Source: the human T2T-CHM13v2.0 reference genome, Homo sapiens. Taken from it: DNA of 64,000 nucleotides. The position numbers were made by a program, and so were the translations under genes. Each line of letters starts with the position of its first letter. Positions within the stretch are counted from its first letter, which is position 1. The notes beneath the pieces were generated by a model. That model saw only the letters and a list, made by a program, of their open reading frames with translations. It was not told where the DNA came from and did not search any database. The DNA lies in contig CP086569.2 in NCBI GenBank assembly GCA_009914755.4, forward strand, positions 8,096,001-8,160,000, given 5' to 3'. Below are positions 1-33,785 of the stretch, piece by piece.

Positions 1-3000
1 CAAAATTTCTTTATTGTGGGCATGGTTTGGGTAAAAGGGGAGAGTCACATATCCTAAGTGCTGGGCTCAACAATATGCCAAAATCCTCCTATTGTGGATA
101 CCCAGGCAGGAAGGGAGAGTCACATCACTTAGGTCATGGGCTCAGAGATATGTCCCAACGTCCCAAGTAGGCAGGGTTCAGGTAGAAGAGGAGAGGCATA
201 TCATGTATGTGCTTCCCTAGGAATATGTCACAATGTAACATGTGGGCAAAAACCAGGCAGAAGAGCCACATCATTTGGGTGCTTGATCCCTAGATATGTC
301 AAAGGTGCTCTTAATGCAGCACCCAGCCAAGAGAGAAACATCATACTAGGTACAGATTCTCTGATTATGCCACAATGCTCTATTTGTGTAGGGTTCAAGG
401 AGGGAGTCGCTTAACTGAGATTATAGGCCCAGAGATATATCACAATGTCCACTATGAAGTAGATCTCTGGCAAAAGAATGCTATAACCTATGTGCCTGGC
501 CTAGAAATATGTCACTCTCAAGGTTGGAAGGGCCTAAGCAGCAGAGCAATATAACCTAGGTGATAGGCCCAGAGATATGTCATAATGCCCTCTTTTGGGG
601 ATCCTCTGGCAAAGGAATACCCTTGCCTGTGTGACTTTTCTTGCAATATGTCACTATCCTTCTTTCGTAATATTCTCATTTCAGAGAGAAGACTTACATC
701 AGCTGTGAGGTGGGTGCAGAAACATGTCACAATAATTTTGGCGGGCCTGGCACAGAAAAGTATGTAACATCACCAGGGTGCTAGATCCAGTGATATGTCA
801 CAATCTTTACTGAAAGATATGATCAGGCAGAAGAGTCATATCACCTTGACGTTGGCCTTGGTAGGTATCATAATCCCATATGTGGGCTGGAACAAGTCTG
901 GTGAGTCAAATTACACAGGTGATTGGCAAAGATTTATATCACAATCACACAGCCAGAGCATTTCAAAGATAAGATTTATGATACCACACATGTCCTGTTT
1001 TCATGTGTGACAGTTGCCTTCATTCATGTGAGATTGTAACAGTCCTTACTTTCAGTGTGGTGTGCATACAAGACTCACAATTTTGCCTGGGTGCTGAGCC
1101 CTGCTTTGACTCAGTCTACATAGTCCAAAGACTTTCTAAAATATACGTGAATGTTGTAATCCTTTGTGACCTTTGCACAAGAAGGAGATGCAGGACATGT
1201 CCCTAAACTTAACAATAGGGGTCAAAATATTCCCTATTTTCTAAGTCCACATATGAGAGTCATTATCATGCCCGTGAGCCATGTCTAGGTATATGTTAGA
1301 ATTCCATCTGTGGTTCTGAAGTAGGCAGAACAGCCACATCACCTAAATGCTGAGCTAGAAGCTAGAAGTATTTTGATTTTTTTTTTGTAGGCAGGGTCTT
1401 ATCAGAAATCTCACAAAACTTGTGTGCTAAATTCAGCTTTGTGGAACAATGTGCTTTGTGGCACAATGTCCTTTGTGGGCAGTGTCCAGGAAGGACAGGA
1501 GAGTAATATCACCTAAATGATGGCCTGAAAATATGTGAAAATACCAACTGCTGATAGCACCTAGGAAAGGAGTGATATCATTTGGATGTAGTGTTTAGAA
1601 AAGCTAGAATTACCAAAGGAAGCAGGGTACAGGCAAAAGAGGAGAGTAATGTAACCTAGATGAAGAGTCCAGGAATATGTTACAATCTCCCCTGAGGACA
1701 TTTTTAAGACACCTCAGTCAAACCACCAAGGTGCTTGGCCAATGTATCTGTCAAAAACTCATTTATGAGGTATACTTAGGCAGAACTATTAAATCACTCA
1801 GTAGTTGGGCAAAGGTATATGTCACAATTACCCTTGTGGAAAGGCTTAAGACTAAGAGCCACCATCTTGCGCAAATCCTAGGCTCCAGGCATGTGAGTTG
1901 TTATTAGGCTTCTGTTATAATCTCTGGTATGTGGCATTATATCACTTGTGGCAAGAGGAAAGAAAAAAAAAGAAAGAAAGAAATTCCCACCACCTATGAG
2001 GGTGCAGTTCCAGTGAGATGTTACAATCCACCTTGTGGGAAGGACCCTGGTGGAAGAGTCACATCACCTGGATACTAATTTCAGTGACATATCAAAACCC
2101 CCTCTCTGGGCAGGATTTTGGTAAGAGAGGAGCCTCACTTCACCAAGGCAATTGACCTAGATATATGTCACAATATTTTTTCCGTGCAGTAACAGAGCCG
2201 GAGAGTGGCATCACACTGTTGCTGAGTGTAGCTTTATTTCATAATCACCCTGTGGTCAAGGTACAGGCAAAAGCCAAGAAACATCACCTAGGTGCTGAGC
2301 CAAGTGATATGTTACCATGCTTCCTGTTGTCAGAACCCATAAAGTAGAATCACATCACCTTGGTTCAGTACATAGTTGTGTGTCACAATGCACTGTAAGT
2401 GAAGGGTCAAAGCAGTAGCAGGGAGCCATAATACTTACGTGATAGACCTAGATATAACACAGAATTCTTTTTGTAGGCAGATTTAATGCAGATAACTCAC
2501 ATCACCTGGGTGATGGTTCCAGTGATATATAGAAGTTCCCATTGTAAGCAGAGCCATGAAAGAGGTGATCTATTTCTTAGTTGCTTGTTCCACAGATGGC
2601 ACAATTTCTTCTGTGGTCTGGGCCTAGAAAAGAGAGTCAAATTGCTGATGCACTGGGCAAAGTTACCTTGTCCCAATCACACTCTCAGAAAGGTTCAGAA
2701 ATAAGTTTCACATCACACACAAGTCCTGGTTTTGTTTATGTGAGTCAACTCTTTCTATGAGTTGGGTTGAAGTAAAGAAGTCACAATCTCAACATTGAGG
2801 CAGATCCATGTATAAGATCCCCAATCCCACTTGAAGACTGTGTTCCAGTAGGAGAGTCAGAGCACAACAGTGTGCTGAATCATGGTTCAAATGTTACAAA
2901 ACCATCTGTGAATCAGATTCCTGAATGAGAGTAATTATTTCAACCTTCGACTGCTTTTTATCCGTGAGATTTAGTACCTCATTCCTAGGCCCTGTTCTGT

Positions 3001-5249
3001 GTGAGAATGACAATCATGTCAGCTAGGTGTGCATACAAGGGTCTCATTCGTGCCTCGTTGTTGTTCTTGCTTATGATCCTCTTTGTAACATTAAGACTTT
3101 ATATGATGTACCTGAGTGTTATAATCCTTTGTGAACTTTATAACATTGAAAAACCCAGGACTTTACCCAATGGCTGTGAGACTGGTTCTGAGAGCCAAAG
3201 TATCTCTACTGTCTAAGTCCAGGTATGAGAGTTATTATTATGCATCTGTGCTTAACCAAGCTACATGTTACAATTTCACCTGAGAGCAGGGAAAAGGCAG
3301 GAGAGTCTCATCACCTGGGTGCTGAGCCAGTGATACAGCATAATCTCATTCATAGGCTAGACCTATTCAGAAGAGTCACGTCACCTGGGTATAGCATCAA
3401 ATAATATGTCACCAACCCCACTATAGACAAGGGAGAAGAAAAAGATGAGTCACTCCCCATGGATGCTGTGCTGTGCAATATGTAATAATCCCCTTGCTGG
3501 CAAGCATCTAGAATATGAAGGAGAGTCCCTTCACCTAGGTTTTGCAGTCAGTGGAATGTCAGAACTTTTTTGGTAAGCAGGACCCTGTCAGGAGAGGAGA
3601 TCACATAATCTAGATGTTAAGCCAATCAATATTTCACGGTCTTCTGATGGCAGTGCACAGGCAGGGGCCACAAATTACCTAGCTTACAGGTCCAGAGATA
3701 TGGGATAATTTCCCCTGTTGGCAGGTCCCAGGCAGAACAGTCACATTATTATAATTCTAAACCAGCGGCATATCACAAGACACCCATGTGAAAAAAATTT
3801 AATCCAAAAAGTCACAACACCTGGGTACTAGGCCAAAACCTTTTGTCTCTGATGTTGACACCATTAAATATAAGCTGGGTGTGTATAACAGAGCCACACT
3901 TTTGCATGTTTCCTACCTTTTTTTATGACACTCTACAACATTTGAAGGCTTTATACAGCATCCATGAGAGTGGCAAACCACTCTGACCCCTACTTGCTAG
4001 TATGGATTCACGATCTTACACATTGCCCTAAAACCCAGGTTTTATGTCTTCTGTAGGCTGGATTAAGGATGAGATCCATTATTACTTTTGTGAGCTGGAT
4101 GTAAAAATGGGTCACCATCCCACCTGTGGTGAGATACACATAGGAAGGTCAAATTCCAACTTTGTACTGTAGTTACTTTTTGGAATCAGGACCTTAACAG
4201 TGGGCTTTGGCCATGTGGGATGGAAACATTTGCTTTCATTTAGGTGCATAATCAAGAATCCCAATCTGAACATTTTGCTGGTCCTTGTCTTGAAACTCTC
4301 TGCATCTCCCAAGGAAGGTGTTATAAGTAAGTGTTTTAATGTTCTGTAAGCTTTGTACAAATATGCAACCGAGGACCTTTCATATTGCCCTGAGCCTAGT
4401 GACGAAAGGCAAAATATCTCCTATTGGTTGAATTTCAATATAAGTTTGACCATCATGCCTGTGATCTCAAGTAATGTGTATGTCACAGTCCCATTTGTGA
4501 GCAAAAACTATGCAGCAGGGTAACATCTCTTTGGTGCTGTGCCAAGCAACATGTCACAATACCCTCCCTAGGCAGGGTACAGGAATTAGAGTCACATTAA
4601 ATTGGTGCTGGACTCAGCAATACAAAACCATCTTACCTGTGAAAGAGACCCAGCCAAAAGATAAGAATCAGAACACCTACATGATGGGCCCAGGACATGT
4701 CAAAATACGTTCCGTGGCTCCAGGACAGTCATGAGTCATGATATAATGTCCTCCTCTGGACAGTAAATTAACAGGGTTTGGCCCCAGCAATATACCATAC
4801 CTCTCTGTGTTTGCAGGACTTAGGCAAAAGAGGAACGTAACCTGGGTGCTGGGCCCTGCAATAGGCCAACAATTCTGATTGTGGGAATGGTTTCAGAAAA
4901 TAAGGAGAGTCAAACAACCTGAGTTCTGGGCTCTGCAATCCATTCATTGTAAAAATCAGACAGAAGATGAGTCACTTCACTTTAGTCTTGGGCTCAGAGA
5001 TATATCCCAATGTTCCCAGTATGCAGGTCCCATGAAGAAAAGGACAGTCATATCACTTAGGTGCTTCCGTAGTTGTATGTCACAATCTAACATGTGGGCA
5101 GAAACCAGGCAGAAGAGCCACACCACCTGGGTATGGCCTCAAGCAATATGTCACCATGCCCAATGTAGACAGTTTGCAGAAAATAAAGAAAATCACACCA
5201 CCTGGGTGCTGGGCTCAGAAATATGTAATAATTTCCTTTATTGGTACAA

Positions 5250-5338
5250 TTCAGGACAAAGAGAACATTAATGTCACCTAGGTTTTGCACTCAGTTCAGG
5301 ACAAAGAGAACATTAATGTCACCAAGTTTTGCACTCAC
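5250..5338. repeat. Tandem duplication of 44-45 bp within the satellite
   Basis: ttcaggacaaagagaacattaatgtcacc(t)aggttttgcactca(g/c) occurs twice back to back, differing by one indel. Confidence 0.85.
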
Positions 5339-5908
5339 AATTTCTTCAGTGGACAGGATCCAGGCAGGAGAGCAGAGTCACCTTAGCTATATGCTATATC
5401 TAGCAATATGTTACAGAGTTCCCTATGGAAAAGGCACTGACAGGAGAGACATCTTACCTAGCCAACAGGCACAGAGATATGTGAAAATATCCCCTGTTTG
5501 CAGAGCCCAGGCAGAAGAGTCACAGTATTATGTTCTGATCCATTGATATGTAACATGCCCTTCTGGAAAATAATTTGAACCAAAAAGTCTCAACACTGGG
5601 GTACCAGGTCAAGGATATGACACAATCTCCTCAACTTTAAGGGTGACACCATTAACTGTTACCTAGTTGTGCATATGTCAGTCACAAACTCACGTGGGTG
5701 CTGGCCATTGTGTGACACTCTATACAACCTCTGAGAACTTTAAACAACATCCATGAGAGTTGAAAACTCACTGAGGCCTACATGCTTATATGGACTCATG
5801 ATCTTACATATTTCACTAAGCTCAGATATGACAGTCAACATCTCTCTTACACATGCTGGCTTCAGGGAGGAGACCATTATTAGCCCTGTGAGCTGGGTCC
5901 AGAATTGA

Positions 5909-6335
<427 letters not shown>

Positions 6336-9300
6336 GGTAATAACTTTTACTTTCACCTGAATGTGTTGTGGAGAGTCACAATACTAATATTTTTCTGGAC
6401 CCTCTTATGAAATTGTCTGTACCACCCAAGAAGGTTTTGTAATATAAGTTAGTGTTGTAAAATTCTGTAAGCTTGTTCAACTAAGCAATGAAGGACTTTA
6501 CCTACTGACCTAAACCTAGTGGTGAAAGGCAAAATATATCCAATTGGCTGAATCCCAATAGAAGCATGATCGTCATGCTTTTGAACTGAAGAAATGTATA
6601 TGTCATAACAATTTGTGGACAAAAATCTAGACAGAAGGTTGACATCACTTAGGTGCTACGGCAAGAAACATGATACAATACCTTGTGTAGGGGGGTCATA
6701 GGAAACAGGGTCACATTAACTGGGCTCTGGAGCCAGCAATATGGCACAACCTCACATGGAAGAAATCTAGCAAAGTGAGGAGACCCAAAACACATATGGA
6801 GTGGGCCAAAGATATATAAAAATAGCTTCTGTGGCTCTGGCACAGGCAGGAGAGTCACATCATTAGCATGCTAGGCCCAGCAATATGCTGAAATTCCTTC
6901 TTTATGCATGGCCCATGCATAAGTGTAACATAATCCAGGTGGGGGGACCTGAACTACAGCAAAATTCCTGTTTGTGAGCATTGTTTGGCAACATGATGAG
7001 AGTCACGTTTCCTAAGTACTGGACTCATCAGCATGTCACAATCTTCCCATTGTAAAAGCTTAGACAGAATAAGAAACTCACATCACTTAGGCCATGGGGT
7101 CAAAGATATGACCCAATAACACAAGTAGGCAGTGCTCAGGCGGAAATAGACAGTCATAACACCTAGATGCTTTTTTAGGTATATGTCACAATTTCATCCA
7201 TGTCCAGTCCTTTCATTCAGTTCTTTCTTTCTATCAGCTGGGTGTGCATACAAGACTCACAATTTCACCTGTATGCTGAGCCCTTCTTTGATTCTGCATG
7301 TATAACCCAAAGACTGTAAAATATGTGTGAGTGTTGTAATATTTTGTGACCTTTGTAGAAGAAGGTGATATGGGATATCACACATGTCCCTAAATGTAGT
7401 TATAATAGTCAAAATATCCTCTATTGTCTGAGTACACATGTAAGAGTCATTATCATTTCTGAGAGCCATGCCTAGGTATCAGTTACAACATTCTCTGTGG
7501 TTATAAAGCAGGCTGAATAGTCATATCGCCTAAATTCTGGACCAAACATATTCCAATATTCTCTTTGGAGGCAGGGTCGTGTCAGAAATGTCACATAACT
7601 TGTGTGCTAGATACAGCTCTGTGGCACAATGTTATTTGCGGGCAGTGTCCAGGCAGAAGAGGAGAGTCATATCACCTAAATGTTGAGCCCCAAAATATGT
7701 CACAATGTCTCCTATTGGCAGGACACAGACAAAATTGTCATATCATTTGGATATAGTGTTTAGAAATGCTACAATTACCAAAGCGAGCTGGGTACAGGCA
7801 GGAGAGGGGAGCCATGTAACCTAGGTGATGTGTCCAGAAATATGTTACAAAATCCCCTGAGGACATTGTTAAGATAGCAAGAGTCAAATCACCAAGGTGC
7901 TTGACCCAGGTGTTTGTCAAGATCTCATTTGTGGGTGATACCTAGGCAGAATTATTAAATCTCTCAGGAGCTGGGCAAAGGTACATGTCACAATTACACC
8001 TGTGGAAAAGTTTAAGAGTCACCATACTGCACATGTCTTGGCTCCAGGCGTATTAGCTGTTATTAGGCTTTTGTTATGGTCTCAGGTATATGGCACAATA
8101 TCACCTCTGGTCAGAGAGAATGCAAGAAAGTCACATCACCTACATGGGTGTGGCTCCATTGAGATATCACAATCCACCCTGTGGGCAGAACCTTGGCAGA
8201 AAAGTCACATCACCTGGCTGCTGGTTTGAGTGACATCAAAGCCCCATTGTGAACATGACTTTGGAAAGAGGGGAGACTCAGTTAACCTAGGCAATTGACC
8301 TAGGTATATGTCACAATGGCCCTTATGTGCAGTACCAAGGCTGGAGAGTGACCTCACATTGGCCCGTTGGTTCAGCAATATGTCACAATCGGCCTGTGGT
8401 GAGGGCACAGGCAAAAGTGAAGAAATATCACCTTAGGTTCTGAGCTGAGTGATATGTTACAATGCTTCCTGCTAGAAGAATGCAAAAAAGAGTATCTCAA
8501 CACCTGGATGAAGTGCCCAGTTAAGTGTCACAATTCACTGTAACTGAAGGGCCAAGGCAGTACAAAGGAGTCACATCACTTATGTGATGGACCTAGATAT
8601 AGGACACAATTTTCTTTGTAGTCAGGCTTCAGGCAGATAATTTACATCACCTTGGTGATGGTACCAGTAATATATAAAAGTACCCTTTTTAGGCAGACTC
8701 AAGGAACATGTTATATATTGCTTAGGTGCCTGTTCCACATATGGCACAATTTCATTGTGGTCTGAGCCTAGAAAAGAGAGTCAGATTATTTATGTGCTGG
8801 GCAAAGTTACCTGCCCCAATCACATGCTAAGAAAGGTTCAGAAATAATTTTCACAACCCACACAAGTCCTGGTTTCATGTATGTGAATCAATCCTGTCTA
8901 TGACTTAGGCCAAAGTAGAGGAGTCACAATCTGAACAATGGGCAAGATCCATGTATAAGAGCCCCAATGACTTATTGTGTCAATGAGATTGTGTCATATC
9001 ACTGGGCTTAGTAGCCCATTGTTAGAACTTTTGTTTAAATTGTTTCCCATGTGTGCATTATAACACTCTTCTGCCTGGGTACTGCAAACAAGAAATATTG
9101 TCACATGTCTCTGAGCCTATCTGCTAGGTGATTTGTCTGTTTTAGCTGTGCTTTGCTCCCAGGGAACATTGTGACATCTTTTAATGTGGCACCTAGGAAA
9201 TGTGACTTCTCTTTTCTGCCTAGGTCCTGTGCACTAAAGAAATATGTACATAGTGCTGAATGCAAAACTTAAATAATGCAACTCTCCTCTTTTTTTCTGG

Positions 9301-10688
9301 AGTCTGAAAAAAGAGGGCATTATTAAATATTGCTGAGGCTAGCACCTTAATGCTGTATCCAGATGATATAACTCTTCTGACTTGGCACTGTCTGCAAAAG
9401 AGATTATAATGTATTCTGAGCTCAAAATCCTGGTGATGAGACTCTTCTTCCTTAGTTCTGCCCACAGGAGAAATAGTGACATATACATGAGTTCAGCTCA
9501 CATGTACAAATATAGCTATCATACCTGGACCCATAAAGAAGAGACATTTGGACTCTCAAAACTGGTCGTATGTCCATAAGTAAAGCAATGGGTCTACTAA
9601 TTTTATAAAGTTCACAGAGGACTATGACACTCAGGCATATGATATAAATCCTGAGTGAGTCAGGATTTATACTCAATGTGACTACTATTGAGTATAAAAC
9701 CTAGGTGATATATCCACAGGGACAGCAAGCCATTGCTATTGTGACTCTTGGATAAACACTCAGCTGGCACATTTATGTATCACTGGGACCAGCATCCAGG
9801 TGATGTGAATTCTTTGCCTGAGTGCTGCCTAAAAAGAGCATTTTGGCTTATATCTAGATCAATCAAGTAAGTGATGTGACTCTCTTCTACTGCCTTCACC
9901 CTGCACTTATGGTGCATTGAACACATAACTGGGTTCTGCACCCAGGTGATGTGACTCTCCCTTTTGGGTTCTGCCAACAAGAAGCTTTGTAACATATCAC
10001 TTTGCTCAGCACCTAAGTCATGTTTCTTCTATCTTATCTCGACCTGATCACAGGGGAGACTGTGACATATTGATAAGTCCAGCACCAAGGCGTGGTCACT
10101 TTCACACCTTGGTTTTGCACATAGCAGCCATTGTGATGTGTATCTATTCCAATTGCCTAGGTTACATGAGCCTCCTCTCTTTCTTAATCCTTGCCAACAG
10201 GTGGAATTTTGATATATCACTAAAACCAGCATCCAGATGATATGATTCTTCTTCCAGGGTCCTGCCCACAGATGGATTGTGACATCTCACTGGACCAGCA
10301 CCCACCCAGGTGTGGTGACCTTCCCACTTGCTTGCCACCCACAGGTGATATTGTGCCATGTACTTAAGATGAGATAAGAGGACTAATGATGACTCTTAAA
10401 TCCGGAGACAGGTCATATGCAAGATGGTGACTCCCAATCCTGAAGCATTTCACTAGTGTGATTGTGACATATACATTTGCCCAGCTTCTGAGTGATTTCA
10501 TAATCCTGCCTAGGTGTAGTCCACAGGTGAGATTCACACATATACTTCAGCTGGTCACCACGGTGATTTGACTCACCTGTCTTAACAATATCCTCAGAAA
10601 GTATTGTAATATGTCTCTGAATCCATCATCTAGGTTACCTGTCTCTCCTCCTCTGCCTGGACCCTGCTTCCATTGGGGATTGTAGCAA

Positions 10689-10774
10689 TATTTTTCCTTT
10701 TTCTTTTTTCTTTTTGTCACCTAGGTTGGAGTGCAGTGGTGCAATCTCAGCTCACTGCAACCACCGCCTTGGAG
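10689..10774 (-). mobile_element. Short Alu-derived fragment (right-arm piece plus T-rich tail)
   Basis: gtcacctaggttggagtgcagtggtgcaatctcagctcactgcaaccaccgcc resembles the Alu core gtcgcccaggctggagtgcagtgg...ctcactgcaagctccgcc. Flanked by a ttgtagca duplication (10680-10687 and about 10777-10784). The homologous site at about 20680-20700 lacks it. Confidence 0.55.
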
Positions 10775-12599
10775 GTTGTAGCATTTTTAAGCACTGCATG
10801 CAAATGACATGACTCTCTTTCCTCATCCTTTCAAGCAACTTTTCTTCCCGGAAATTGCCTACAAGGAGAATATTTGAAAATTCCTGATTCAGCATGTAGG
10901 TGTCTTGGCTATCACACCTGTTTCATTACCACAGAGAAAACTGACATATAACTAGGCACAACTCATAGGCATAATAATGACTCATACCTCACAAATAGGA
11001 GTAATTTTTGACTCTCGTTATGGGCTTTAGAAATATAAGTGATTAATACTCTCAGCTAAAAAAAAAAAGGTCTGAGATTATAATGGCCTCAGAAATTTTA
11101 TAAAGCCTTTGGCTTGTGCAGAGAGTTTAATGACAGAACACAGAAGAAAGATAAAATTCTGAGTCTCATACACACATCCAGCTGATAGTAAAGACCGTCA
11201 CCATCTCATATATATGAAGCCAGATGTCACTACTGAAAACAAGATATGTGCGGTATTGTAAATCTTATCCAGGAAATTTTCTGCCAGTGTGGCTGTGACA
11301 TAAATATTTGCCAAGCACCTCTGTGATTTGACTCTCCAGACTGGTTTCATCCCACATATGTTATTGTGATATGTACCTAGGCCAACCTCTAGGTGAGGTA
11401 ATTCTCCTGCCTGGGCCTTGCTGTCAGTGAGAATCATAACATATCAGTAGATTCAGCACCCTAGTCATGTTATGTTTTTGCCTGAGCCCTGCCTACAGAA
11501 ATCACTGTGACATATCACTAGGTCAACAACTTACGTGATGTAAGTCTCCTCATTTTAATGGGCCCTGTGCATTGTGGGGGATAGTGACATATGGCTGGGC
11601 TAGAAACAAAGCTGATGGTACTCTTTTGTGAGGGCCATGTCCTAAAAAGGGCATTATGACAAATCTCTGGGTCTTCACCTAGGTGATTTTGCTCTCCTAC
11701 TTGGGTCATGTTTACCTGTATAGTGACATGTTGCTAGGCTAAGTACAAATGTAATGCTACACTTTCACCAGGGCCATGCTTCAGGGGGACATTGTGACAT
11801 ATCTCTGGGCCTATCACTTAGGTGATATGACTCCCTGCTTGGGTCCTGCCCACATAGAGCATTGAAACATAAGGGCAAAAACTGCACCAGTTTGCTGTCT
11901 CTTGCTTGGGTCCTGTCCTAAGGGAGCCTTGTGACATAGCTCAGGATCCAGCATCAAGGTGATGTGGCTCTTTTGCCTGTTTTCACCTAACATGTAAGAT
12001 TGTGTCATGTATCTAGGGAAGCAACTACCTGATATGTGATATGAGTCTTCTGTTCTGTTTGAGCCCTGCCTACTTGGGATATTTGGCCATATATCTGAGC
12101 TCATGTCCTAAGTGATGTGACCCTGTTTTTCCACCAGAGACTTTATAATGGGTTAATGTGAACTATTTCTAAGTCCAATACTTAGATAATATAACTCTTC
12201 ATTTTTTCCTGAACTTTTCCCTAAGAAGAGGAATTGTGACATATTACTGGGCTGAGCACACAGATGATGCTTCTCTGCTGCCTGGGTCATTCATAAAGAG
12301 AGAATTATGGCATATATTTGGGCCCCCAACCCTGATGATGTAAGTCTCCTGCCTGTGACATAGCAACAGAAAGTATTTTAACATACCTTGGGCCCATGTT
12401 GTAGGTGTGTTTGCTCTCATCATTTGTCTATTTTTCTTCCAAATTTGGGATTGTGTTATATTGCTGGTTCCAGCAGCCCAGTTAATGTAACCTTCATTTC
12501 TACATCCTGCTTAGAGGGCATTGTGACATATTGCTTGGCAGAACACCTAAGTTGTGCTACCCTCTTGCCAAGTTTTTTCCTACAAATTGGATTATTAAA

Positions 12600-13319
12600 T
12601 TTACATTGCTTCTATTCAGAGGGATGATGATCAAATTTAAATTGTGATTACACCAATAGTTCATATTTTGCCTCTCGTCGCTATGTATATGGCAATAGGT
12701 AATGTTATGAGTTGTATATTTGTACAAAACTTAGAGAATGTTACAACTCTAACTCAGATTCTATAAACTTACTGGGTGGTACACAGAGTTTTATAACAGG
12801 GTCCAGCAAAAGATTAAGATTGTGATTCTTGATTACATATGCAGATGAGAACAAATGTTGTCATCATCCCACATTTACAAAAGCCACTGTTGAATTCCTG
12901 AATCTAACAAGTAAATAAGGTACAAAGATGGAATTTTGACTTTCATATGTGGATCTTGCTACAGATGAGATGGTGACTTATTTCTGGACACAGATCACAG
13001 GCATAATAATGAGTCTCCCATCTCAACCCAGCCTATAAGGGAGATGTTGACTCATAGCTGGGTTTAAAGCAATATATAAGATTGTGAGTCACTATGAGCA
13101 TGTATGCCTCAGAGTGGATTGCTACTCTTATGTATGTTGCATAAAGCTTTCCAATGTTGTAGAATGTGTCATACGGTGAGCCAGAAAACACATGAGATTG
13201 TCACTCTCATATACACATCAAGCTAGAAGTTAAAGATGTCACACTAAAAAATGAAGAGATTGTGTCCTATCTCTAGGCCTAGTACTCCTAGGCGTTGAGA
13301 ATTTTTTGCTTAAATTCTC
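12600..13319 (-). repeat. HOR block A (representative copy, ~700 bp non-monomeric block)
   Basis: Recurs as described above. It is the reverse complement of 3850-4470 (aggcaaaatatctcctattgg...catcatgcctgtgatc versus cacaggcatgatgatcaaac...gccaataggagatattttgcct). Confidence 0.55.
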
Positions 13320-14526
13320 TTTTTTTTTTTTTTTACTGAAAATATTATGTTTATTTATTTATTTATTTATTAGTATTATTATACTTTAAGTTTTAGGGTA
13401 CATGTGCACAATGTGCAGGTTAGTTACATATGTATACATGTGCCATGCTGGTGTGATGCACCCATTAACTCATCATTTAGCAGTAGGTATATCTCCTAAT
13501 GCTATCCCTCCCTCCTCCGTCCACCCCACAACACTCCCCAGAGTGTGATGTTCCCCTTTCTATGTCCATGTGTTCTCACTGTTCAATTCCCACCTATGAG
13601 TGAGAATATGCAATGTTTGGTTTTTTGTCCTTGTGATACTTTACTGAGAATAATGATTTCCAATTTCATCCATGTCCCTACAAAGGACATGAACTCATAA
13701 TTTTTATATGGCTGCATAGTATTCCATGGTATATATGTGCCACATTTTCTTAATCCAGTCTATCAGTGTTGGACATTTGGGTTGGTTCCAAGTCTTTGCT
13801 ATTGTGAATAGTGCCGCAATAAACATATGTGTTCATGTGTCTTTATAGCAGCATGATTTATAGTCCTTTGGGTATATACCCAGTAATGGGATGGCTGGGT
13901 CAAATGATATTTCAAGTTCTAGATCCCTGAGGAATCGCCACACTGACTTCCACAGTGGTTGAACTGGTTTACAGTCCCACCAACAGTGTAAAAGTGTTCC
14001 AATTTCTCTACATCCTCTCCAGCACCTGTTGTTTCCTGATTTTTTAGTAATTGCCATTCTAACTGTGTGAGATGGTATCTCATTGTGGTTTTGATTTGCA
14101 TTTCTCTGATGGTCAGTGATGGTGAGCATTTTTTCATGTGTTTTTTGGCTGCATAAATGTCTTCTTTTGAGAAGTGTCTGTTCATGTCCCTCACCCACAT
14201 TTTGATGGGTTTGTTTGTTTTTTTCTTGTAAATTTGAGTTCATTGTAGATTCTGGATATTAGCCCTTTGTCAGACGAGTAGGTTACAAAAATTTTCTCCC
14301 ATTCTGTAGGTTGCCTGTTCACTCTGATGGTAGTTTCTTTTGCTGTGCAGAAGCTCGTTAGTTTAACTAGATCCCATTTGTCAATTTTGGCTTTTGTTGT
14401 CATTGCTTTTGGTGTTTTAGACATGAAGTCCTTGCCCATGACTATGTCCTGAATGGTAATGCCTAGGTTTTCTTCTAGGGTTTTTATAGTTTTACATCTA
14501 ACATTTAAGACTTTAATCCATCTTTA

Positions 14527-14709
<183 letters not shown>

Positions 14710-18502: not shown

Positions 18503-21500
18503 GCTTAAATTCTTTACCATGGGTGCGTTGTGAGGCATCGCTGGGTTAGAGTGATAAAAAGATGACTCTTGCTTGGACCCCAGCACCATGGGATATTACC
18601 ACATATCTCTGGGCCTATCAGGTAGGTGATGTGTCTCTCCTCCCAATGTCATATCCACAGGGGACACTGTGACATATTGCTGGATATAGCATCTAGATAA
18701 TGTGAATCTCCTCTGCTGCCTGGATCCTGCCCACTGAACAATTTGTGACTACCAATGAGTATAAAACCTAGGTGATGTGACTCTAACTTTGTTCTGTACT
18801 CTGTCATGAGAGGGAATTATAACATATTGCTGAGCATGGCACCTAGGGGTGTGACTATCCACTATTTTTTCAACGATGTATACAGTGGGCATGATGACAT
18901 ATTATTGGAGATTGTACCCAGGTGATATGAGCCTTCTGACTGGGTTCTGCCTACAGAGGAGATTATAATGTATGCCTGGCTAAGGACCCAGATGATGTGA
19001 CTCTTCTGTCTGGTCTCTGCCCAAAGGTAAAATTGGACTTATTTGTGAAATCAGTTCATATGCACAACAATAACTTTCATAGATTGTCCAAGCCAGGGGG
19101 GATATTTTGAGTCTCATTGCTAGTCTTATGGCCATGGGTAAAGTCCTAGACTCCCACCTATGAGAATTCACAGAAAAGTGTGCTACTCAGGTATATCACA
19201 TAAAGCATGAGTGGTACAAAGAGTTTCCTGACAGGCACCAACAAACATGTGCTACTTTGAATCTTGGATGCATACCCAGCTGACACAATTTTCATTCTCA
19301 TACATAAGCTGAGCCTACAAATGAGGTACTAAGTCTCACACACATCAGCAGTCAAATCTTAAAATTGTAATTCTTATACATGAATCTGATCCACAGGTGG
19401 TTTGGTGACATTTGAACCTCGATTCAGCAAACCCGTGGTGCTTCGACTCTATTAATGGAGCACAATCTTCAAGTGGGATTGGGGCTGTTATGCATGCATC
19501 TTGCCCATTGTTGAGATTGTGACTGCTGTACTTTGATCCAACTCATAGGAGATGTTGACTCTCACACCCTAAGCCAGTACTTGTGTGTGACTGTGAAATG
19601 TATTTCTGAACATTTTTGAGTGTGTGATTAAAAAGTATAACTTTGACCAGCATCTGAATGTTTTGACTCTCCTTTCTAGGCCCAGAGCACAGTTCAAGCT
19701 GTGACATATGTGCGCCAATCACCTATGCAATATATAGCACCTTCTTTGGCAATAGGACAAAGGGCAATTTACATATCCCTGAAAGCAGCACCCAGCTGAT
19801 GTAAAATCTTGGCCTGAACCCTGCCTACAGACAGCATTGTGGCTTTTATCAAGGTCCATCATATAAGTGATGTGACTTCCTTCTACTGCCTTGGCCTTGA
19901 ACTTCTGGTGCATTGTTACACATAACTGGGTACTGCACCCATGTGATGTGACCCTTCGTTTGGTGGGGGGAGGTTGTACTAATACAAAAACTATGTAACA
20001 TATCATGTGGCTCAGCACCTAGGTGATGTTTCTTCTCTCTTGACTGAGCGCTGACCACCAGAGAGATGGTGACATATAGGTGAAACTAGCACAAGGTAAT
20101 TTCACTCTCCTGCCTTGGTCCTAAATATAGGGGCCATTGTGACATATACCCAGGCCAATTGCCCGGGTGAGGTTTGTGTCCTCTCCAGCTTAAGCCCTGC
20201 CCACAAGAGGGGTTTAGATATATGATTGAAACTAGCATCCTGATGATGGGACTCTTCTTCTAGAGGTCTGTCCACAACAAGGATTGTGACATTCAACTAG
20301 GCCAGCATCCACTCAGGTGATAAAAATTTCCTTTTTTCTCCATGTTCACAGGTTATATTGTGCCATATATGTGAGACCAGATCAAAGGCCTGATAATGAC
20401 CCTTGTACCTGAAGCCAGGATGTGCAGAATGGTGACTCTCATCCCTGAAACTTTTTATAGGTGTTATTGTGACATTTTTGTTTGCCAATCTCCTGAATGA
20501 TTTAATAATCCGACTTAGTTATAGCTGAGTTGACATTTTGACTTATGTCTGGGCAAAACCTTGATGATTTGACTCTTGTGTCTAAACTGTGTCTTCAAAA
20601 GGGATCATAACATATTGCTGGATTCATCTTCTAGGTTCTGTGTCTCTCCTCTCCTGCATGAACCTGATTCCAGTGCAGACTGTAGCATTTTTATGCACTG
20701 AATTCAAATGACACAATTCTATTGCCTGGGCCCTTTTCAACAGGAGTCATTGTGACATATCTCTGGGGCCATGGTTTAGGTAATATGACTCCACTCTCCT
20801 TCCTGGACATTCTCCACAAGGGGCATTATGCCATGGAGCTTTGCCTAGCATGCAAAGTTTGTGAATTTTCTGTTAGAGTCTTGCTTTCAAAGAGTATATT
20901 GGAATAATTCTGGATGAAAATTTAGGTGACGTGATTGTCCTGTCTGTTTAGTAAGCACAGAGGAAATGGTGACATTTACCAAGGCACAGCTAACAGCCAT
21001 GATCATGAGTCTAATATGGAGACCCAGCCAATAAGATAAAGTTGACTTTTGTCACAAGATTTTGGGACATGAGTGATGTCAATGATCTTCTTTTGGTAAA
21101 AAGCCACAAAAAATTATAACTAACACATGTATTTTGTAACACCCTTGGATACAGAGTGTCATAATGCCTAGCACACAGAGAAAATTATGAGTCTCATATG
21201 CAAACTAAATAACAGCAAGGACTTTCAACATCAAAGAGGAATGAAAGCAACTGTCCTACATAAAAAGAGGACATGTGTGGTATTGTAAATCTAATCCTTA
21301 GAATTTAATTCCATTGTGAATATGATATAAATCTTTCCCAAACACCTGTGTGATTTCACTCTTCAGATTGTTTTCAGCCTATTTATGGAATTTTGATATC
21401 TATCTGGGCCCATTTTGAAGTGATGTGACTCCTCTGCCTGGGCTCTGCTCTCAATAAGAATTATGACATCACTGGATCTAGCACCCAGGTGATGTTACAT

Positions 21501-24500
21501 TCTTGCCTCCCACAGACATCATTGTGATGTATCACTGTATCCATCACTTAGAAGAGGACGCCAGGGCCATGCCCAAAAGAGGGCATTTTGACCTATCAGA
21601 AGTCTATCATGTAGGTGATATGGCTCTTCTTGGGTCCTGCCCACTTGAATAATGATACATTGCCAGGCCGGGCACAAAGGTAACTGTACTCTTTTGCCAG
21701 GGCTATGCTTTAAAGAAGTTTTTGTGACATATCTCTGAGCCTATCACCTAGGTGATGTTACTCCCTGCTTGGCCCTGTCCAATGTAGCTCTGTGATATAA
21801 GGGTGGAACCTGCACCTAGGTGATGTAAGTATTTTGCCTGGGTCCTATTCTAAGAAGGACTTGTTTTCATCTCAGGACCCAGGACCAGTTGACATGGCTC
21901 TTGAGTCTGGTTTCCACCCACATATTAATTTGTGATATATACCAAAAGAAACACCTGTGTAATATGACTTCCTTTTTCTGCCTGAACCTTGGCTACTGGT
22001 GACATTGGGCCATATCTCTGAGCCCAGGACCTAATTGATGTGAGTCTCTACTTCTCTCTGGGCCTTTACAGTAGGAGGATTGTGACATATTGATGAGTAA
22101 AGTACTTAGGTAATGTGACGCTCATCTTGTTGCTGAATAATGCCCATGAAATGGACTTTTGTTATATTTCAGGGCCCAGCACCACATGTTGTTACTACAC
22201 CGCATAGATCATACATAAAGAGAAAATTATAGCATATAGCTGCACCCAGCTCCCTAATGATGTGACTCTTCTGCCTATGCCAGAGCCACAGAAGGAATTT
22301 TGACGTATCCATTGTTTATTCTGCAGGTTCTTTTGGCTCTCATCACTTTACTGGGTTTCTTCCATGTGTGGATGTATCGCTTTGCTTTCTCCTGCCGTCT
22401 GTTAATGTAACCCTATTTCCTAGGTCCTGCCTAAATAGAGCACTATGGCATATTGCTTGGCACAGCACCTAAGTGATGTTAATCTTCAGCCTAGTTTTTT
22501 GCCCACAAATGGGATTATGACATATACCTGTCTTCAGTTCAAAGACATGTTGATCAAGCCTATATTTGGATTCAGCCAATAGGAGATATGTTGCCTCTCA
22601 CCACTAGGTTGTTGTCAATAGGCAAGGTCCTCCATTGTATATTTGTACAAATCTCACAGAAGCTTACAACATTAACTCATATCATAAAAACTTCTTGTGT
22701 GGTACAGAAAGGTTCATAGTGGGGTCTGAAAAAGTTAAAATTGTGACTTTCATCTAGATACTCAGTTGAAAGTAAGAGTTGTTACCATCCTACATTTACA
22801 AAACATTGCTGAGGTCCTGAGTCTAAAAAGTCAATACAGAACTAAGTTGGCATTGTGACTTTCCTAAACGAATCTGGTCACGGGCAGAATGGTGAGTAAT
22901 TTCTGGACCCAGCTCACAGACATAATAGTGGTCTCATCCCTGAAACCAGCATATAGGAGAGATGTTGACTGTCATACCTGAGTTTAGGGCAATATGTAAG
23001 GTCCTGAGTCCCTACAAGCATGTAGGCCTCAGAGAGTTTTGCAACTCTGATGTATGTTGTATAAACATCTCAGGTGTTGTAAAGAGTGCCAGGCAACAAA
23101 CAGCATACACGTGAGATTGTGACTATCATACACAACTCTATAACAGTTAATGGTGTCACCCTTAATAATGAGGTGATTGTGTTACCTCCCTTGGCAAAGT
23201 AAACCAATGTTGACTTTTTGGTTAAAATTCGTTTCCGTAAGGGCTTTGCTAAATATCACTGGTCAGAATATTGATACAGTTACTCTTCTGTCTGAGTCCT
23301 GCAAACAGAGAATATTCTCATTTATCTCCAGGCCTATTGGCTAGGTGATTTATCTCTCCAGCCAGTGCCCTGCCCAAACAGGACACTGTGACATATTGAT
23401 AGATACAACATCTAGGTAATGTGAATTATCACTCCTGCCTGGATCCTGCCCACTGAAAAAATTTTGATATACCACTGAGTGCAAAACCTAAGTGACATGA
23501 CTCTTTTTTGTTTTCCTGGACCCTGCAAAGTGAGGTAATTATTATACTTTACTGATCCCAGCCCCCAATGGTGTGACTTCCTTTTTTTTTTCTTCTTTAA
23601 ACCTCTCTTCATTGGGCATGGTGACATATCACTTGAGGCAGTACCCAGATAGTGTGACTCTTCTGCCTGTTTTCTGCCCACTTCTTAGATTGGGATGCAT
23701 AATGAAGGAAGCAGCTGGGTGATATGACTCTCCTTTTCTTTCTGGGCCCTGACTACTGGGGACAGTGGGATATATCTCTGAGGCCATGATCTCAGTGAAT
23801 TGACTCTCTTCTTCTACCTGGTCTTTACAATGGGGGAGATGGTGATATATTGCTGAGCCCAGGACTCAGGTTATTTCACTCTCATTTTTCTCTTGAACCA
23901 TGGCCATAAACAGATATTTTGACATATTGCAGAGTCCAACACCTAGATAATGTTACTCTTTTACCTGGGTCATCTATATACAGAATATTATGGCATAATG
24001 CTTGGCCCAGAACCCTGATGATGTGACTTTCATGAGGATGCCAGAACACCAGAAGGTATTTTGACATACTCTGGGCCCACTATGTAGGTGTTTTGACTCT
24101 CACTTTTTGGCTTTTTATTCTTCCACATGTGGGATTGTGCTGTATTGCTGAGTTCAGCACCCAATAAATATGACTCTAATTCCTACACCCTGCCTAGAGA
24201 GGGTATTGTGACATGTTGCTTGTCACAGCACCTAAGTGATATTACCCTGTGGCATAGATTTTTTTGCCCACAAATGGGACTATGATATACACTTTACTTC
24301 AGTTTACAGGCATGATTGACAAACTTATATTTGAATTTAGCCAATAGGAGATATTTTGCCTTTCATCGCTAGGCCTAGGGAAATAGGTAAGGTCCTGGGT
24401 TGCATATTTATACCAAGCTCAAAGACCTTTACAACATTCACTCATAATGTATCATCTCCTTCAGTTATACAGAGAGTTTCATGACAGAGTCCACCAAAAG

Positions 24501-25350
24501 TTCAGACTTGGACTCTCAATTACACACCCAGGTGAAAGCAGATGTTGTCACCACCCTATATGTCCAAAGCCCACTGTTAGGGTCCTGAGTCTAACAAGTG
24601 AATGCAGTACAACATTGGAGCTGTTACTTTTATATGTGGATCTGACCACAAGTGAGAGGGTGAGTCATTAATGGATCCAGCTCACAAACATAAAAATGGG
24701 TCTCATTCCTGACCCCAGCTTACAGAAGAAATGTTGACTATTACACCTTGTTTTAGGGAAATATATACGTAAGATTGTGAATCTATAGGAACATGTAAGT
24801 CTCACAGTGGTTTGCAACTCTCATGCATGCTGTATAAAGCCTTCAAATGTAGGTAAAGTGTTATACAATGGTCCAGGAAACACAGGAGACTGTGAATCTC
24901 ATACACACCCAGATCACAGTTAGTAGGGTTACTCTCAAAGACAAGGAGATTTGGTATCTTACTAGGCCTAGTATCCAGGTGTTGAGACATTTTGGATTAA
25001 ATTTCTTTTCACGGGTGCATTGCTCCATATTGCTGGGTTAGAATCATAAAAATGTGACTCTTCTGCCTGGACCTGGCAACAGGGGCTATTATCACATATC
25101 TCTTGGCCTATAAGCTAGGTGATTTGTCTCTTCTCCTTGTGTCATGCCCCCAGCAGGCATTGTGAAATATTGTTTGGCATAACATTTAGGTAATATATCT
25201 CTCCTCTCCTGCCACATCCTGCTCACCAAAGAAATTGTGACATACCGCTGACTTCAAAACCTAAATAATGTAACTCTCCTTCATATTCTAGACTCTGCTC
25301 AGAGAGGTGGTGATTACATATTGCAGAGCCCAGCACCTAGGTTAAGTGAC

Positions 25351-25502
25351 CTTCTTCTTCTTCTTTCTTCTTCTTCTTCTTCTTCTTCTTCTTCTTCTTC
25401 TTCTTCTTCTTCTTCTTCTTCTTCTTCTTCTTCTTCTTCTTCTTCTTCTTCTCCTCCTCCTTCTCCTTCTTCTTCTCCTTCTCCTTCTCCTTCTCCTTCT
25501 CC

Positions 25503-25534
<32 letters not shown>

Positions 25535-25600
25535 CTTCTTCTTCTTCTTCTTCTTCTTCTTCTTCTTCTTCTTCTTCTCCTCCTTCTTCTTTATTCTTCT
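25351..25600 (-). repeat. (GAA)n on the minus strand, read as (CTT)n on +; about 250 bp with an interior (GGAGAA)n-like segment; expanded from the adjacent Alu poly-A tail
   Basis: Uninterrupted cttcttctt... from 25351, a ctcctccttctccttct...ctccttctcct segment at about 25450-25505, then (ctt)n again to about 25600. Directly abuts the tail of the minus-strand Alu. The ORFs at 25314..25673, 25321..25704 and 25346..25654 are its poly-E, poly-S and poly-L translations. Confidence 0.9.
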
Positions 25601-25897
25601 GTCTTTGTTTTTGTTTTGAGACAGAGTCTTGCACTGTTGCTCGGGCTGGAGTGAAGAGATACAATGACAGCATACTTCAACCTCCGCCTTTAGGGGTCAT
25701 GTGATTCTCATTTATCAGGTTCCTGAGTAGTTGGCATTACAGGCACTTGCCACCAGGCCTGGCTAATTTTCTTTTTTAGTAAAGACTGTGTTTTACTATA
25801 TTGGCCAGGCTGGTCTCAAACTCTTGACTTCATGATCTGCCTGCCTTTGCTTCCCAAAATGATGCAATTACAGGTGAGAGCCACAGCACCCAGTGGA
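25601..25897 (-). mobile_element. Alu (older, diverged S/J-like) whose A-tail has expanded into the (GAA)n tract
   Basis: ttttgagacagagtcttgcactgttgctcgggctggagtgaagag ... ggtgagagccacagcacccagtg is the reverse complement of an Alu. It is inserted inside a satellite monomer: gttaagtgac | insert | gactctcctc. Confidence 0.85.
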
Positions 25898-26099
25898 CTC
25901 TCCTCTCTTTCTTCTACCCTATCTATAGTGGGCTTGGTGACTTAACTATTTGAGGCTTTATCTATGTGATGTGACTCTTCTGACTAGGCTCAGACTACAA
26001 ATGAGATTATACTGTATCATTGGATTAGCACCAAGGTGATGAGCCTCTCCTGCCTTGTCTCTGCTCACAGCAGAAATTGTGACATATACCAGGGTTAAG

Positions 26100-26700
26100 T
26101 AAACATGTGCAATAAAAGTCTTATTACTGGACCTAGTCAGTAGAGATATTTTGACTTTCATAACCAGTCTCACAGCCATGGGTAAAGTCCTGGGTTATTC
26201 ACAATTATAAATTTTTAGAAAAATTATAACTCTAAAGTATATCATATAAATCTCAATGGTAGAAAGAGTTTCATAACACAATCCATCAACGACATGAGAA
26301 TGTGACCCTTGTATGCCCACTTAGCTGATATGATTGTCATCACACATGAAGAGAGTTAAACATGAGGTACTAAATCTCACACATAAAAAGCAGTCAAAGT
26401 TTGAAATAATTACTTTCATACATGGCTTTGATTCACAAGTGATTTGGTAACATTTGAACCATGATTCATCACACTTCTGGGGCTGTGACTCCTTTCCTGA
26501 AAACAATCTTAAAGTGAAATCGGGGCTCTTATACATGGATCTTGTCCATTGTTGAGGATGGGACTCCTCTACTTTGACCCAACTTATAGAAAGGGTTGAC
26601 TCACATACACGAATCCAACAATTGTGTGGGATGTGAAACTTATTTCCGAGAGTGTAATTTCCCAGCACAGGAATAATTGGACTCATTTTCTAGGCCCAGA
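26100..26700 (-). repeat. HOR block B (representative copy)
   Basis: gccatgggtaaagtcctgg ... cagtcaaagtttgaaat ... attgttgag ... recurs at 19040-19700, 29830-30110 (partial), 51150-51770 and 57560-58200. It is the reverse complement of 2700-3290. Confidence 0.55.
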
Positions 26701-27984
26701 CCACAGATAAAATTGTGCCCTATGTGGAACAAACACCTAAGCAATAGATAACACATTCCTCTTCTCTGCCTACAAAGGATACTTTATAAATTACTGGGAC
26801 CATCAACCAGGTGTTGTGAATTATCTGCCTGGAACCTGCCTACAAAGAAAAGTGTGTCTTATATCTAGGTTCATCACCTAAGTGATGTCATTCCCTTCTA
26901 CTGCCTTGGCCCTGAACTTACATGAATTGTGACACATAATTGGAAACTGCACCCAGGTGATGTTTTTGTTACTGCTTAAAGGAAGCTTGTAACATGTCAC
27001 TTGGCTCAGCATCTAGGTGATGTTTTCTTGCTTTTGCCTGGGTCCTGACCACAGAGATATTCTGAGATATTGCTTGAGCCAGCAGAAAGTTGAGTTCACT
27101 CTCCTGCCTTGGTACTGAACATTACAGACACTGTGAGTTGTATCTAGCTCAATTGCCTAGGTGAAGTAAGCCTTCTCTCTTGCTGAAGTCCCACACACAG
27201 AGGGGGTTTAGATATATCACTAAAACCGACATCCAGGTAATGTGACTCTTCTTCCAGGGTTTGGCCCACAAGGTGGTTTGTGACATCTCCTGGACCCATA
27301 CCCATGTAGGTTATGTGACTTTCTTACCCTCTTTCTGGCCACAGGTGATATTATGTCATATACCTGAGACCATAAGAAAAGTCTATTAACAACAAATATG
27401 CTAACATCCTGCACAAGTGCCGGGTGGTGACTCTTATTACTAAACCTTTCCATGAGTGTAATTGTGACATGTACCTTTGTCCATTTCCTGAGTGATTTAA
27501 TAATTCTGCCTAGGTATAGCCCAAAAAAGAGATTTTGACAAATACCTGGGGCAAGCACCTGGGTGATTTGAGCTTGCTAACTTAACAGTGTCCTCATGAG
27601 GCTTGTAACATATTTCTGGAGTAATTTTCTAGGTTACATGACTCTCCACTCCTGCCTGGACTCTAATTCTTCTGGTAATTGAAGCATTTCTAAACGTGGC
27701 ATCCAAATGATATGACTCTCTTGCCTGTGCCCTGTTAACAGGAGGCATTGTTTCATGTTTTGGGACCCATCATTTAGGTAATATGACAGTCCTCTCCTGC
27801 CTGGACACTGCCAACAGGGACATTGTGCCACAGAGCTGGACCTAGTGTAGAGGTCAAGTGACATTTCTGACAGAACCTTGCCTACAAAAAGATTACGGGA
27901 AAATTTCTGGCCCAGCATTTAGGTGATGTGACAGTTCTGCCTGCTTCAAAACTGGAGAGGGAATTGTAACATATAACTAGGAAT

Positions 27985-33469: not shown

Positions 33470-33785
<316 letters not shown>

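What the first reader, a model, noticed from the sequence alone, without database searches (positions are those of the whole stretch)
8940..9000. Abrupt head-to-head orientation switch inside the satellite array at 8968/8969
Up to 8968 every monomer and every HOR block is in + orientation. From 8969 to 34262, and again from 48420 to 61251, everything is the reverse complement. The switch falls inside a B block: at 2700-2830 the B block continues ...gatccccaat-cccacttgaagactgtg..., whereas the copy at 8850-8968 reads ...gagccccaat and then immediately gacttattgtgtcaatgagattgtgtcatatcactgggc, which is inverted satellite. There is no transposable element, TSD or simple repeat at the junction. It therefore looks like an inversion or inverted-duplication breakpoint, or the natural boundary between two oppositely oriented arrays. 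Such breakpoints are sites of past rearrangement and potential hairpin or cruciform formation. The same pattern could also be an assembly mis-join.
Basis: seen in the sequence. Interest (0 to 1): 0.6.

Follow-up and report, generated by a model that had tools for sequence, protein, structure and literature searches.

The report
Old inversion scar in decayed satellite
The strand flip at 8968/8969 is real: it is a clean, old breakpoint where part of an ancient, decayed primate tandem-repeat array was turned around. This kind of scar is common in diverged satellites, and this one cannot form a hairpin.

Summary
A monomer profile built from the window finds 433 copies of a ~75-bp unit: 95 in one orientation up to 8962 and 338 in the other from 8983 to 61208. 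That is a single switch. Six paralogous blocks align with the left side up to ...AGAGCCCCAAT (8968) and then continue together, while the window turns into inverted array. Three paralogues of the right side also continue upstream of ~8970-8984, so both sides are truncated. An A-type block (~3.4 kb unit) is broken ~640 bp from its end and joined to the last ~400 bp of a C-type block (~1.7 kb). The monomer phases differ, 0-15 nt are unassigned, and there is no TE, TSD or simple repeat.

Left-arm and right-arm blocks belong to the same higher-order family (K2P 0.23-0.30 across arms, 0.21-0.30 within the right arm). The two arms are therefore not independently grown arrays. The blocks flanking the junction are not each other's closest relatives (K2P 0.35), so this is not a young fold-back. 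There is no excess hairpin potential (z = -0.38).

The best reading is a non-homologous inversion or inverted-duplication breakpoint in an old array. An assembly error is unlikely but cannot be tested here. This is an ordinary, known kind of feature.

The parts
1..8968 (-). Left arm. About 75-bp monomers, all in the orientation opposite to the rest of the window. It is the mirror image of the block order A - C - C' - A1 and is colinear with 19478-29270. It runs off the window start, so the inverted segment is at least 8,968 bp.
   Evidence: 95 of 95 nhmmer monomer hits are on the minus strand. Inverted blastn chains are 1-3470/29270-25882, 3434-5295/25364-23474, 5335-6034/23467-22774, 6336-7197/22786-21924 and 7234-8968/28218-26519.
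7234..8968 (-). Truncated A-type block abutting the junction. It stops at the position equivalent to 2825, 26519, 29906, 19478, 57987 and 51551 in its paralogues, all of which continue.
   Evidence: Alignment A1. Blastn alignments end exactly at 8968.
8966..8984 (.). The junction itself. Left homology ends at ...CCCCAAT (8968). Right homology is firm from about 8984 and plausible from 8972. Between 0-3 nt (GAC) and 15 nt are unassigned. There is no TE, TSD or simple repeat.
   Evidence: Alignments A1 and A2; TRF; Alu/L1 motif scan.
8969..9347 (+). Truncated tail (about the last 400 bp) of a C'-type block in the majority orientation. Its paralogues (24900-25338, 23130-23544 and rc 5337-5680) continue upstream of the break.
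   Evidence: Alignment A2; blastn of 8969-9468; monomer hits 8983-9015 and 9065-9505, all on the plus strand.
9348..13320 (+). Proximal right arm: a divergent A block (9766-10687 and following) and a C block, ending at an L1 insertion.
   Evidence: blastn; K2P matrix; monomer hits.
18563..34251 (+). Main body of the array in the majority orientation: A2, C, C', (CTT)n, A1, A1.
   Evidence: blastn; nhmmer; TRF.
48455..61251 (+). Second stretch of the same array in the majority orientation.
   Evidence: blastn; nhmmer.

Best explanation
The junction at 8968/8969 is one breakpoint of an inversion-type rearrangement inside a single, ancient, decayed tandem array of a catarrhine primate genome. The rearrangement was either a balanced inversion or an inverted duplication of array DNA.

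The array is built from ~75-bp monomers, each a dimer of ~37-bp sub-repeats. These are organised in ~3.4-kb (A) and ~1.7-kb (C) higher-order blocks.

Shown: an A block broken about 640 bp from its end is joined head-to-head to the last ~400 bp of a C' block. The two sides are at different monomer phases, and at most a few unassigned bases lie between them.

Inferred: a head-to-tail array offers no inverted homology, and the two sides are non-equivalent positions. The join was therefore made by a non-homologous route, either end joining of two breaks or a replication template switch, not by homologous recombination. It is a passive scar and has no present-day structural activity such as a hairpin or cruciform. 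If it arose by duplication, it dates from the amplification epoch (about 9-12% private change per copy, tens of millions of years). If it was a balanced inversion, it could have happened at any time after the blocks formed.
For: A single clean orientation switch, 95 versus 338 monomers. All inverted self-matches pair 1-8968 with >=9065, and six alignments end at 8968. The left block is truncated relative to six paralogues. The right block is truncated relative to three paralogues. Block order in the left arm mirrors that of 19478-29270. Left-right K2P distances of 0.23-0.30 equal right-right distances of 0.21-0.30, and left copies interleave with right copies in the NJ trees. Private substitutions per copy are alike in both arms, 8.8-11.7%. 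The monomer phase differs on the two sides: profile position ~1 on the left and ~18-20 on the right. There is no TE, TSD, simple repeat or N at the join. The array is old: CpG o/e is 0.08-0.15, and it carries a later AluY insertion with a 13-bp TSD and an empty paralogous site and L1 insertions. Strand switches are documented as inversion breakpoints that accumulate, together with TE insertions, in divergent satellites (Altemose et al. preprint, doi 10.1101/2021.07.12.452052).
Against: The second breakpoint is not in the window, so a balanced inversion cannot be told from an inverted duplication. No read-level data or second assembly could be reached: the junction 28-mer is absent from the two collections scanned, and ORFs next to the junction are not in the protein or contig collections. 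With about 25% divergence between copies, the exact breakpoint, and any microhomology or filler, is uncertain by up to 15 nt. The event could not be dated, because the substitution spectra show no strand asymmetry to exploit.
Confidence: 0.8

Rival explanations
1. Assembly mis-join: two real pieces of the array were wrongly joined in opposite orientation by the assembler or by a chimeric read.
For: It cannot be excluded without reads, and repeat arrays in general are error-prone. No independent copy of the junction was found, but those collections essentially lack primate DNA, so this carries little weight.
Against: The flanks are effectively unique. The best other copy of the left 500 bp is 81.7% identical, and of the right 500 bp about 72-79% over parts, so repeat-induced confusion is not expected. 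Fold-back chimeric reads give perfect palindromes, whereas here the arms nearest the junction differ at K2P 0.35 and start at different block positions. There is no N gap.
Confidence: 0.08
2. Natural boundary between two arrays that expanded independently in opposite orientations from separate seeds.
For: Head-to-head arrays exist in many genomes. The window shows only one switch.
Against: Both arms have the same multi-kb block types in mirrored order. Cross-arm distances equal within-arm distances, and trees interleave left and right copies. The boundary cuts through a block and through a monomer on both sides. Independently amplified arrays would each have their own block structure and would cluster by arm.
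Confidence: 0.03
3. Young fold-back inverted duplication (palindrome) of the kind produced by breakage-fusion-bridge or hairpin-capped breaks, still able to form hairpins or cruciforms.
For: The geometry is head-to-head. Reading outward, both arms pass through A-block sequence within about 1.7 kb (7767-8684 versus 9766-10687).
Against: That arm pair is only 73.6% identical (K2P 0.35), worse than its match to distant copies (0.23-0.26), and has a 1,081-bp spacer. The arms start at different block and monomer positions. The fold z-score is -0.38, and the longest perfect inverted repeat near the junction is 10 nt.
Confidence: 0.02
4. Inversion by homologous recombination between pre-existing inverted copies (NAHR), or a TE-mediated event such as L1 twin priming or TE insertion.
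For: An L1 elsewhere in the window does show a twin-priming-type 5' inversion. Once one inverted segment exists, further NAHR between the arms becomes possible.
Against: The two sides of the join are non-homologous positions: an A block against a C' block, with different monomer phase. There is no TE sequence, poly-A or TSD at the junction.
Confidence: 0.04

Closest known systems
Strand switches (inversion breakpoints) in divergent satellite arrays, as catalogued genome-wide in T2T-CHM13 (Altemose et al., 'Complete genomic and epigenetic maps of human centromeres', doi 10.1101/2021.07.12.452052)
   Same: An abrupt change of monomer strand inside one repeat family, in a diverged array that has also accumulated L1 and Alu insertions. 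[quoted passage not shown]
   Different: This is not alpha, beta or HSat satellite. The monomer is ~75 bp (2 x ~37 bp), the blocks are only 70-80% identical, and I could not name the family. It looks like a fossil array in ordinary AT-rich DNA rather than a pericentromeric satellite. Its chromosomal position is unknown.
Non-homologous (NHEJ or template-switch) inversion junctions of structural variants
   Same: A blunt or near-blunt join of non-equivalent sequences with 0-15 nt unassigned and no long homology at the breakpoint.
   Different: The mechanism is inferred from one old junction whose fine detail is blurred by about 25% divergence. The partner junction was not seen.
Large palindromes and fold-back inverted duplications (for example sex-chromosome ampliconic palindromes, or BFB products)
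   Same: Head-to-head arrangement of related sequence.
   Different: The arms are not mirror images from the centre and are not kept similar by gene conversion (73.6% identity, offset start points), and there is no short spacer.

Membership tests
Inversion breakpoint (strand switch) within a satellite or tandem array | Tandem monomers of one family on both sides, on opposite strands | tested here: met
   95 minus-strand monomers up to 8962 and 338 plus-strand monomers from 8983, all found with one profile.
Inversion breakpoint (strand switch) within a satellite or tandem array | Both arms derive from the same array (shared higher-order blocks, no clustering by arm) | tested here: met
   Mirrored block order. 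Cross-arm K2P of 0.23-0.30 is about equal to within-arm 0.21-0.30, and the trees are interleaved.
Inversion breakpoint (strand switch) within a satellite or tandem array | Repeat units are interrupted at the switch, so it is a breakpoint and not a unit boundary | tested here: met
   Six paralogues continue past 8968. Three paralogues continue upstream of about 8970-8984.
Balanced inversion | A reciprocal second junction: a majority-orientation A block ending at the equivalent of 26518, abutting an inverted C' block ending at the equivalent of about 24944 | not testable with these tools
   The left arm runs off the window start, and there is only one switch in the window.
Real genomic junction (as opposed to an assembly artefact) | Spanned by independent reads, assemblies or haplotypes | not testable with these tools
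   The junction 28-mer is not in metagenome contigs or genome contigs. Neighbouring ORFs are absent from the contig and protein collections. These collections are not primate genome resources.
Fold-back inverted duplication / palindrome | The arms mirror each other outward from the junction with a short spacer and are each other's closest relatives | tested here: not met
   The nearest mirrored pair, 7767-8684/9766-10687, is 73.6% identical with a 1,081-bp spacer. Its K2P of 0.35 compares with 0.23-0.26 to distant copies.
Cruciform or hairpin-prone inverted repeat | Long, near-perfect arms with a short spacer, and a folding energy beyond shuffled controls | tested here: not met
   z = -0.38 for 300 nt folded as DNA. 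The longest perfect inverted repeat is 10 nt with a 70-nt spacer.
NAHR-mediated inversion | The junction lies within homologous sequence shared by both parental sites | tested here: not met
   An A block is joined to a C' block, at monomer profile positions ~1 and ~18-20.
TE-associated junction (insertion, or L1 twin priming) | TE sequence, a poly-A tail or a target-site duplication at the join | tested here: not met
   No Alu or L1 motif lies near the junction, and array homology reaches to within 0-15 nt on both sides.

The most novel reading that the evidence does not exclude
The head-to-head switch might not be a neutral scar. It could be the conserved centre of a functional, divergently organised ancient tandem array, such as a bidirectionally transcribed non-coding or small-RNA cluster, or an array of factor-binding sites whose polarity matters (each monomer carries a palindromic CACCTAGGTG-like core). 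Alternatively, it could be a polymorphic inversion segregating among haplotypes. Nothing I could run excludes either reading, but nothing supports them. There is no CpG island (CpG o/e is 0 in 8469-9468), no Rfam family and no CTCF core motif.
Probability: 0.04. Interest if true: 0.5.

Novelty: new member of a known kind. Interest (0 to 1): 0.15.

Why it matters
It matters little beyond annotation. The junction marks where an old tandem array was rearranged by a non-homologous event. It shows that the rearrangement happened after the block structure was established, and it creates inverted homology that could in principle mediate later inversions between the arms. At 70-80% identity that risk is low. 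The junction is a useful landmark for checking assemblies and for comparing haplotypes or species at this locus. It does not open a new biological question.

Tried and rejected
1. Independent confirmation of the junction failed. An exact 28-mer across the join was scanned in metagenome contigs and genome contigs with 0 hits. No ORF spans the junction; the longest stop-free frame across it is 31 codons. Exact look-ups of the neighbouring ORFs 9220-9465(-) and 8002-8229(+), and of the L1 ORF1 at 17874-18533(+), found nothing. A homology search with the 81-aa ORF 250 bp from the junction found nothing. These resources do not cover primate genomes, so the negatives say nothing about whether the junction is real.

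2. Dating the inversion from strand-asymmetric substitution spectra gave no answer. I polarised private substitutions in five A1-type copies (two left, three right). Neither arm shows a significant complementary asymmetry (all p > 0.06), so the test is uninformative.

3. Naming the repeat family failed. Rfam gave 0 matches at gathering thresholds. The CTCF core motif CCASYAGRKGGC has 0 sites. A literature search for a 75-bp primate satellite returned only alpha-satellite papers. TRF (period up to 500) does not detect the array at all, because the copies are too diverged.

4. A hairpin or cruciform was rejected.

5. A large ancient palindrome with arms 1-8968 and 19478-29270 was rejected. The inner ends (7234-8968 versus 21120-19478) are only 71.8% identical, worse than the match to non-mirrored copies at 78.4-78.8%. 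The apparent mirror colinearity is simply the periodic block order.

6. The 10-nt perfect inverted repeat AACAATGGGC/GCCCATTGTT (8934-8943/9014-9023) flanking the join is explained by homology between half-monomers. It is not a palindromic centre.

Full report
WHAT THE WINDOW IS. The window has no Ns. It carries Alu elements at 6041-6335(-), 33470-33763(+), ~42633-42845 and ~46248-46441, and L1 3' ends near 13476 and 61369. It also carries L1 ORF1/ORF2 remnants. The Alu at 6041-6335 is 98.2% identical to the AluY consensus as I recall it (the consensus is from memory). This points to a catarrhine primate genome.

Most of the window is a diverged tandem array. K-mer spacing peaks at 71-76 and about 146 bp. 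An nhmmer profile iterated from one monomer converges on 433 hits and a 75-nt consensus, TGTGACTCTTCTGCCTGGGCCCTGCCCACAGAGGAAATTGTGACATATTTCTGGGCCCAGCACCTAGGTGATGTG. Its two halves resemble each other, so it reads as a ~37-bp sub-repeat dimer.

TRF does not report the array, because the copies are too diverged. Self-blastn shows multi-kb blocks only 70-80% identical. The blocks are:
- A-type, ~3.4 kb, for example 26461-29819 and 29847-33233 (76.6% identical).
- C-type, ~1.7 kb, for example 21560-23500 and 23650-25340.

CpG o/e is 0.08-0.15. The array is interrupted by L1 (13358-18533), a 14-kb non-array stretch (34262-48420) and a (CTT)n tract (25351-25605).

THE OBSERVATION. All 95 monomer hits in 1-8962 are on one strand. 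All 338 hits in 8983-61208 are on the other. That is one switch in 64 kb. Every inverted self-alignment pairs 1-8968 with coordinates >=9065, and every direct alignment stays on one side. Six alignments end exactly at 8968.

In alignment A1 the junction copy follows six paralogues up to ...AGAGCCCCAAT (8968). The paralogues then continue together (CCCACTTGAAGATTGTG...), while the window reads GACTTATTGTGTCAATGAGATTGTGTCATAT.

In alignment A2 that sequence aligns with three majority-orientation paralogues: rc5290-5680, 24900-25300 and 23130-23510. The match is firm from GAGATTGTGTCATAT (~8984). It plausibly begins at TTATTGTGTCA (8972) if an 8-12 nt deletion is allowed. Those paralogues share further sequence upstream that the window lacks.

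Both sides are therefore truncated. No TE, TSD, simple repeat or gap sits at the join.

ANATOMY OF THE JOIN. The left side is an A block cut at the equivalent of 26519, about 640 bp from the A-block end at 25882. The right side starts about 400 bp before the end of a C' block, at the equivalent of about 24945. In profile coordinates, the left monomer reaches the junction at about position 1 and the right monomer starts at about position 18-20. The join therefore links non-equivalent positions of two different block types, with between 0-3 and 15 unassigned bases.

From this I infer a non-homologous mechanism, either end joining or template switching. Homologous recombination is unlikely, because a purely head-to-tail array offers no inverted substrate for it.

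ONE ARRAY OR TWO? Read backwards, the left arm has the same block order as 19478-29270. K2P distances between left-arm blocks and their best right-arm paralogues are 0.23-0.30. This is the same range as right-right pairs (0.21-0.30). In neighbour-joining trees the two left A copies interleave with the right copies 26780, 30192 and 58364. The right copies 19768 and 51828 form a separate A2 subtype. Private substitutions per copy are 8.8-11.7% in both arms. The arms are therefore parts of one amplified array, and the strand flip post-dates the formation of the block structure. This argues against two independently grown arrays.

PALINDROME OR HAIRPIN? The blocks closest to the junction that mirror each other are 7767-8684 and 9766-10687. 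They are 73.6% identical (K2P 0.35), which is worse than their match to distant copies, and they are separated by 1,081 bp. A 300-nt DNA fold centred on the junction is no more stable than shuffles (z = -0.38). The longest perfect inverted repeat is 10 nt, and half-monomer similarity explains it. A young fold-back, and any cruciform or hairpin propensity, are therefore not supported.

From established knowledge of inverted-repeat instability, near-identical arms and short spacers are needed (for example the work on inverted Alu pairs in yeast, recalled and not checked here). This locus should not be fragile.

ASSEMBLY ARTEFACT? I could not test this directly. The flanks are effectively unique: the best other copy is 81.7% identical over 450 bp on the left, and 72-79% over parts on the right. 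There is no perfect palindrome and no gap. The usual causes of inverted mis-joins are therefore absent. Attempts to find the junction, or ORFs next to it, in the available public collections returned nothing. Those collections hold essentially no primate genomic DNA, so the negatives are uninformative.

AGE. The array is old. It has about 10% private change per copy, strong CpG decay, and an AluY insertion that post-dates block duplication. That Alu has a 13-bp TSD (GGTAATAACTTTT), with an empty site at the paralogue 22774-22786. If the left arm arose by inverted duplication, the event is as old as the amplification. If it was a balanced inversion, it could be any age since. I tried to date it from strand-asymmetric substitution patterns, but neither arm shows any asymmetry.

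COMPARISON WITH WHAT IS KNOWN. Strand switches inside satellite arrays are a documented class. Altemose et al. counted inversion breakpoints per megabase by satellite family in T2T-CHM13. [quoted passage not shown] The present junction fits that description in a different, unnamed and much more decayed repeat family.

VERDICT. The interpretation as a rearrangement breakpoint is supported. The 'natural boundary' and 'hairpin/cruciform' options are not supported. A mis-join is unlikely but untested. The feature is an ordinary instance of a known kind, so interest is low (0.15).

Noticed in passing
window 13358-18533: There is an L1 on the minus strand, with its 3' end near 13358, RT at 14935-15567(-) and the ORF1 dsRBD at 17424-17816(-). 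Its 5' part is inverted: ORF1 trimerisation, RBD and partial dsRBD domains lie on the plus strand at 17874-18533. The dsRBD is partly present on both strands. This is the pattern expected from twin priming, and it is unrelated to the satellite strand switch.
   Followed up: partly
window 6041-6335: A young AluY (98.2% identical to the recalled consensus) is inserted in a C block of the left arm, with a 13-bp target-site duplication GGTAATAACTTTT. The paralogous site at 22774-22786 is empty, so the Alu post-dates block duplication.
   Followed up: yes
window 58363/58364: This is a second discontinuity in the array, without a strand change. Five self-alignments end at this position, and about 190-210 bp of the A block (the equivalent of 8405-8594) is missing. 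It looks like a simple internal deletion.
   Followed up: partly
window 25351-25605: An (CTT)n tract of about 84 units lies between a C' block and an A block, followed by about 280-540 bp that has no counterpart at the corresponding place in the left arm (3434-3470).
   Followed up: no
window 13358-16003 and 61252-63896 (also 35840-37879): Two L1 3' portions are 89.6% identical over 2.6 kb. Both are on the minus strand and both directly abut the end of an array stretch. The flanking array positions seem to differ by about 330 bp in block coordinates, so they are probably independent insertions of one subfamily, but this was not resolved.
   Followed up: no
whole array (monomer consensus): The ~75-bp monomer is a dimer of ~37-bp sub-repeats and contains a palindromic CACCTAGGTG core. 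The family could not be named: Rfam gave 0 hits, there are no CTCF core motifs, and TRF is blind to it. Blocks adjacent to the junction on the right (9766-10687) are unusually divergent (K2P 0.34-0.40 to all others).
   Followed up: partly
window 34262-48420: A 14-kb non-array stretch separates the two majority-orientation array segments. It contains an L1 fragment (35840-37879), old Alus (~42633-42845 and ~46248-46441) and two relatively GC-rich patches (~39-41 kb and ~44-46 kb, GC 0.46). It was not characterised.
   Followed up: no
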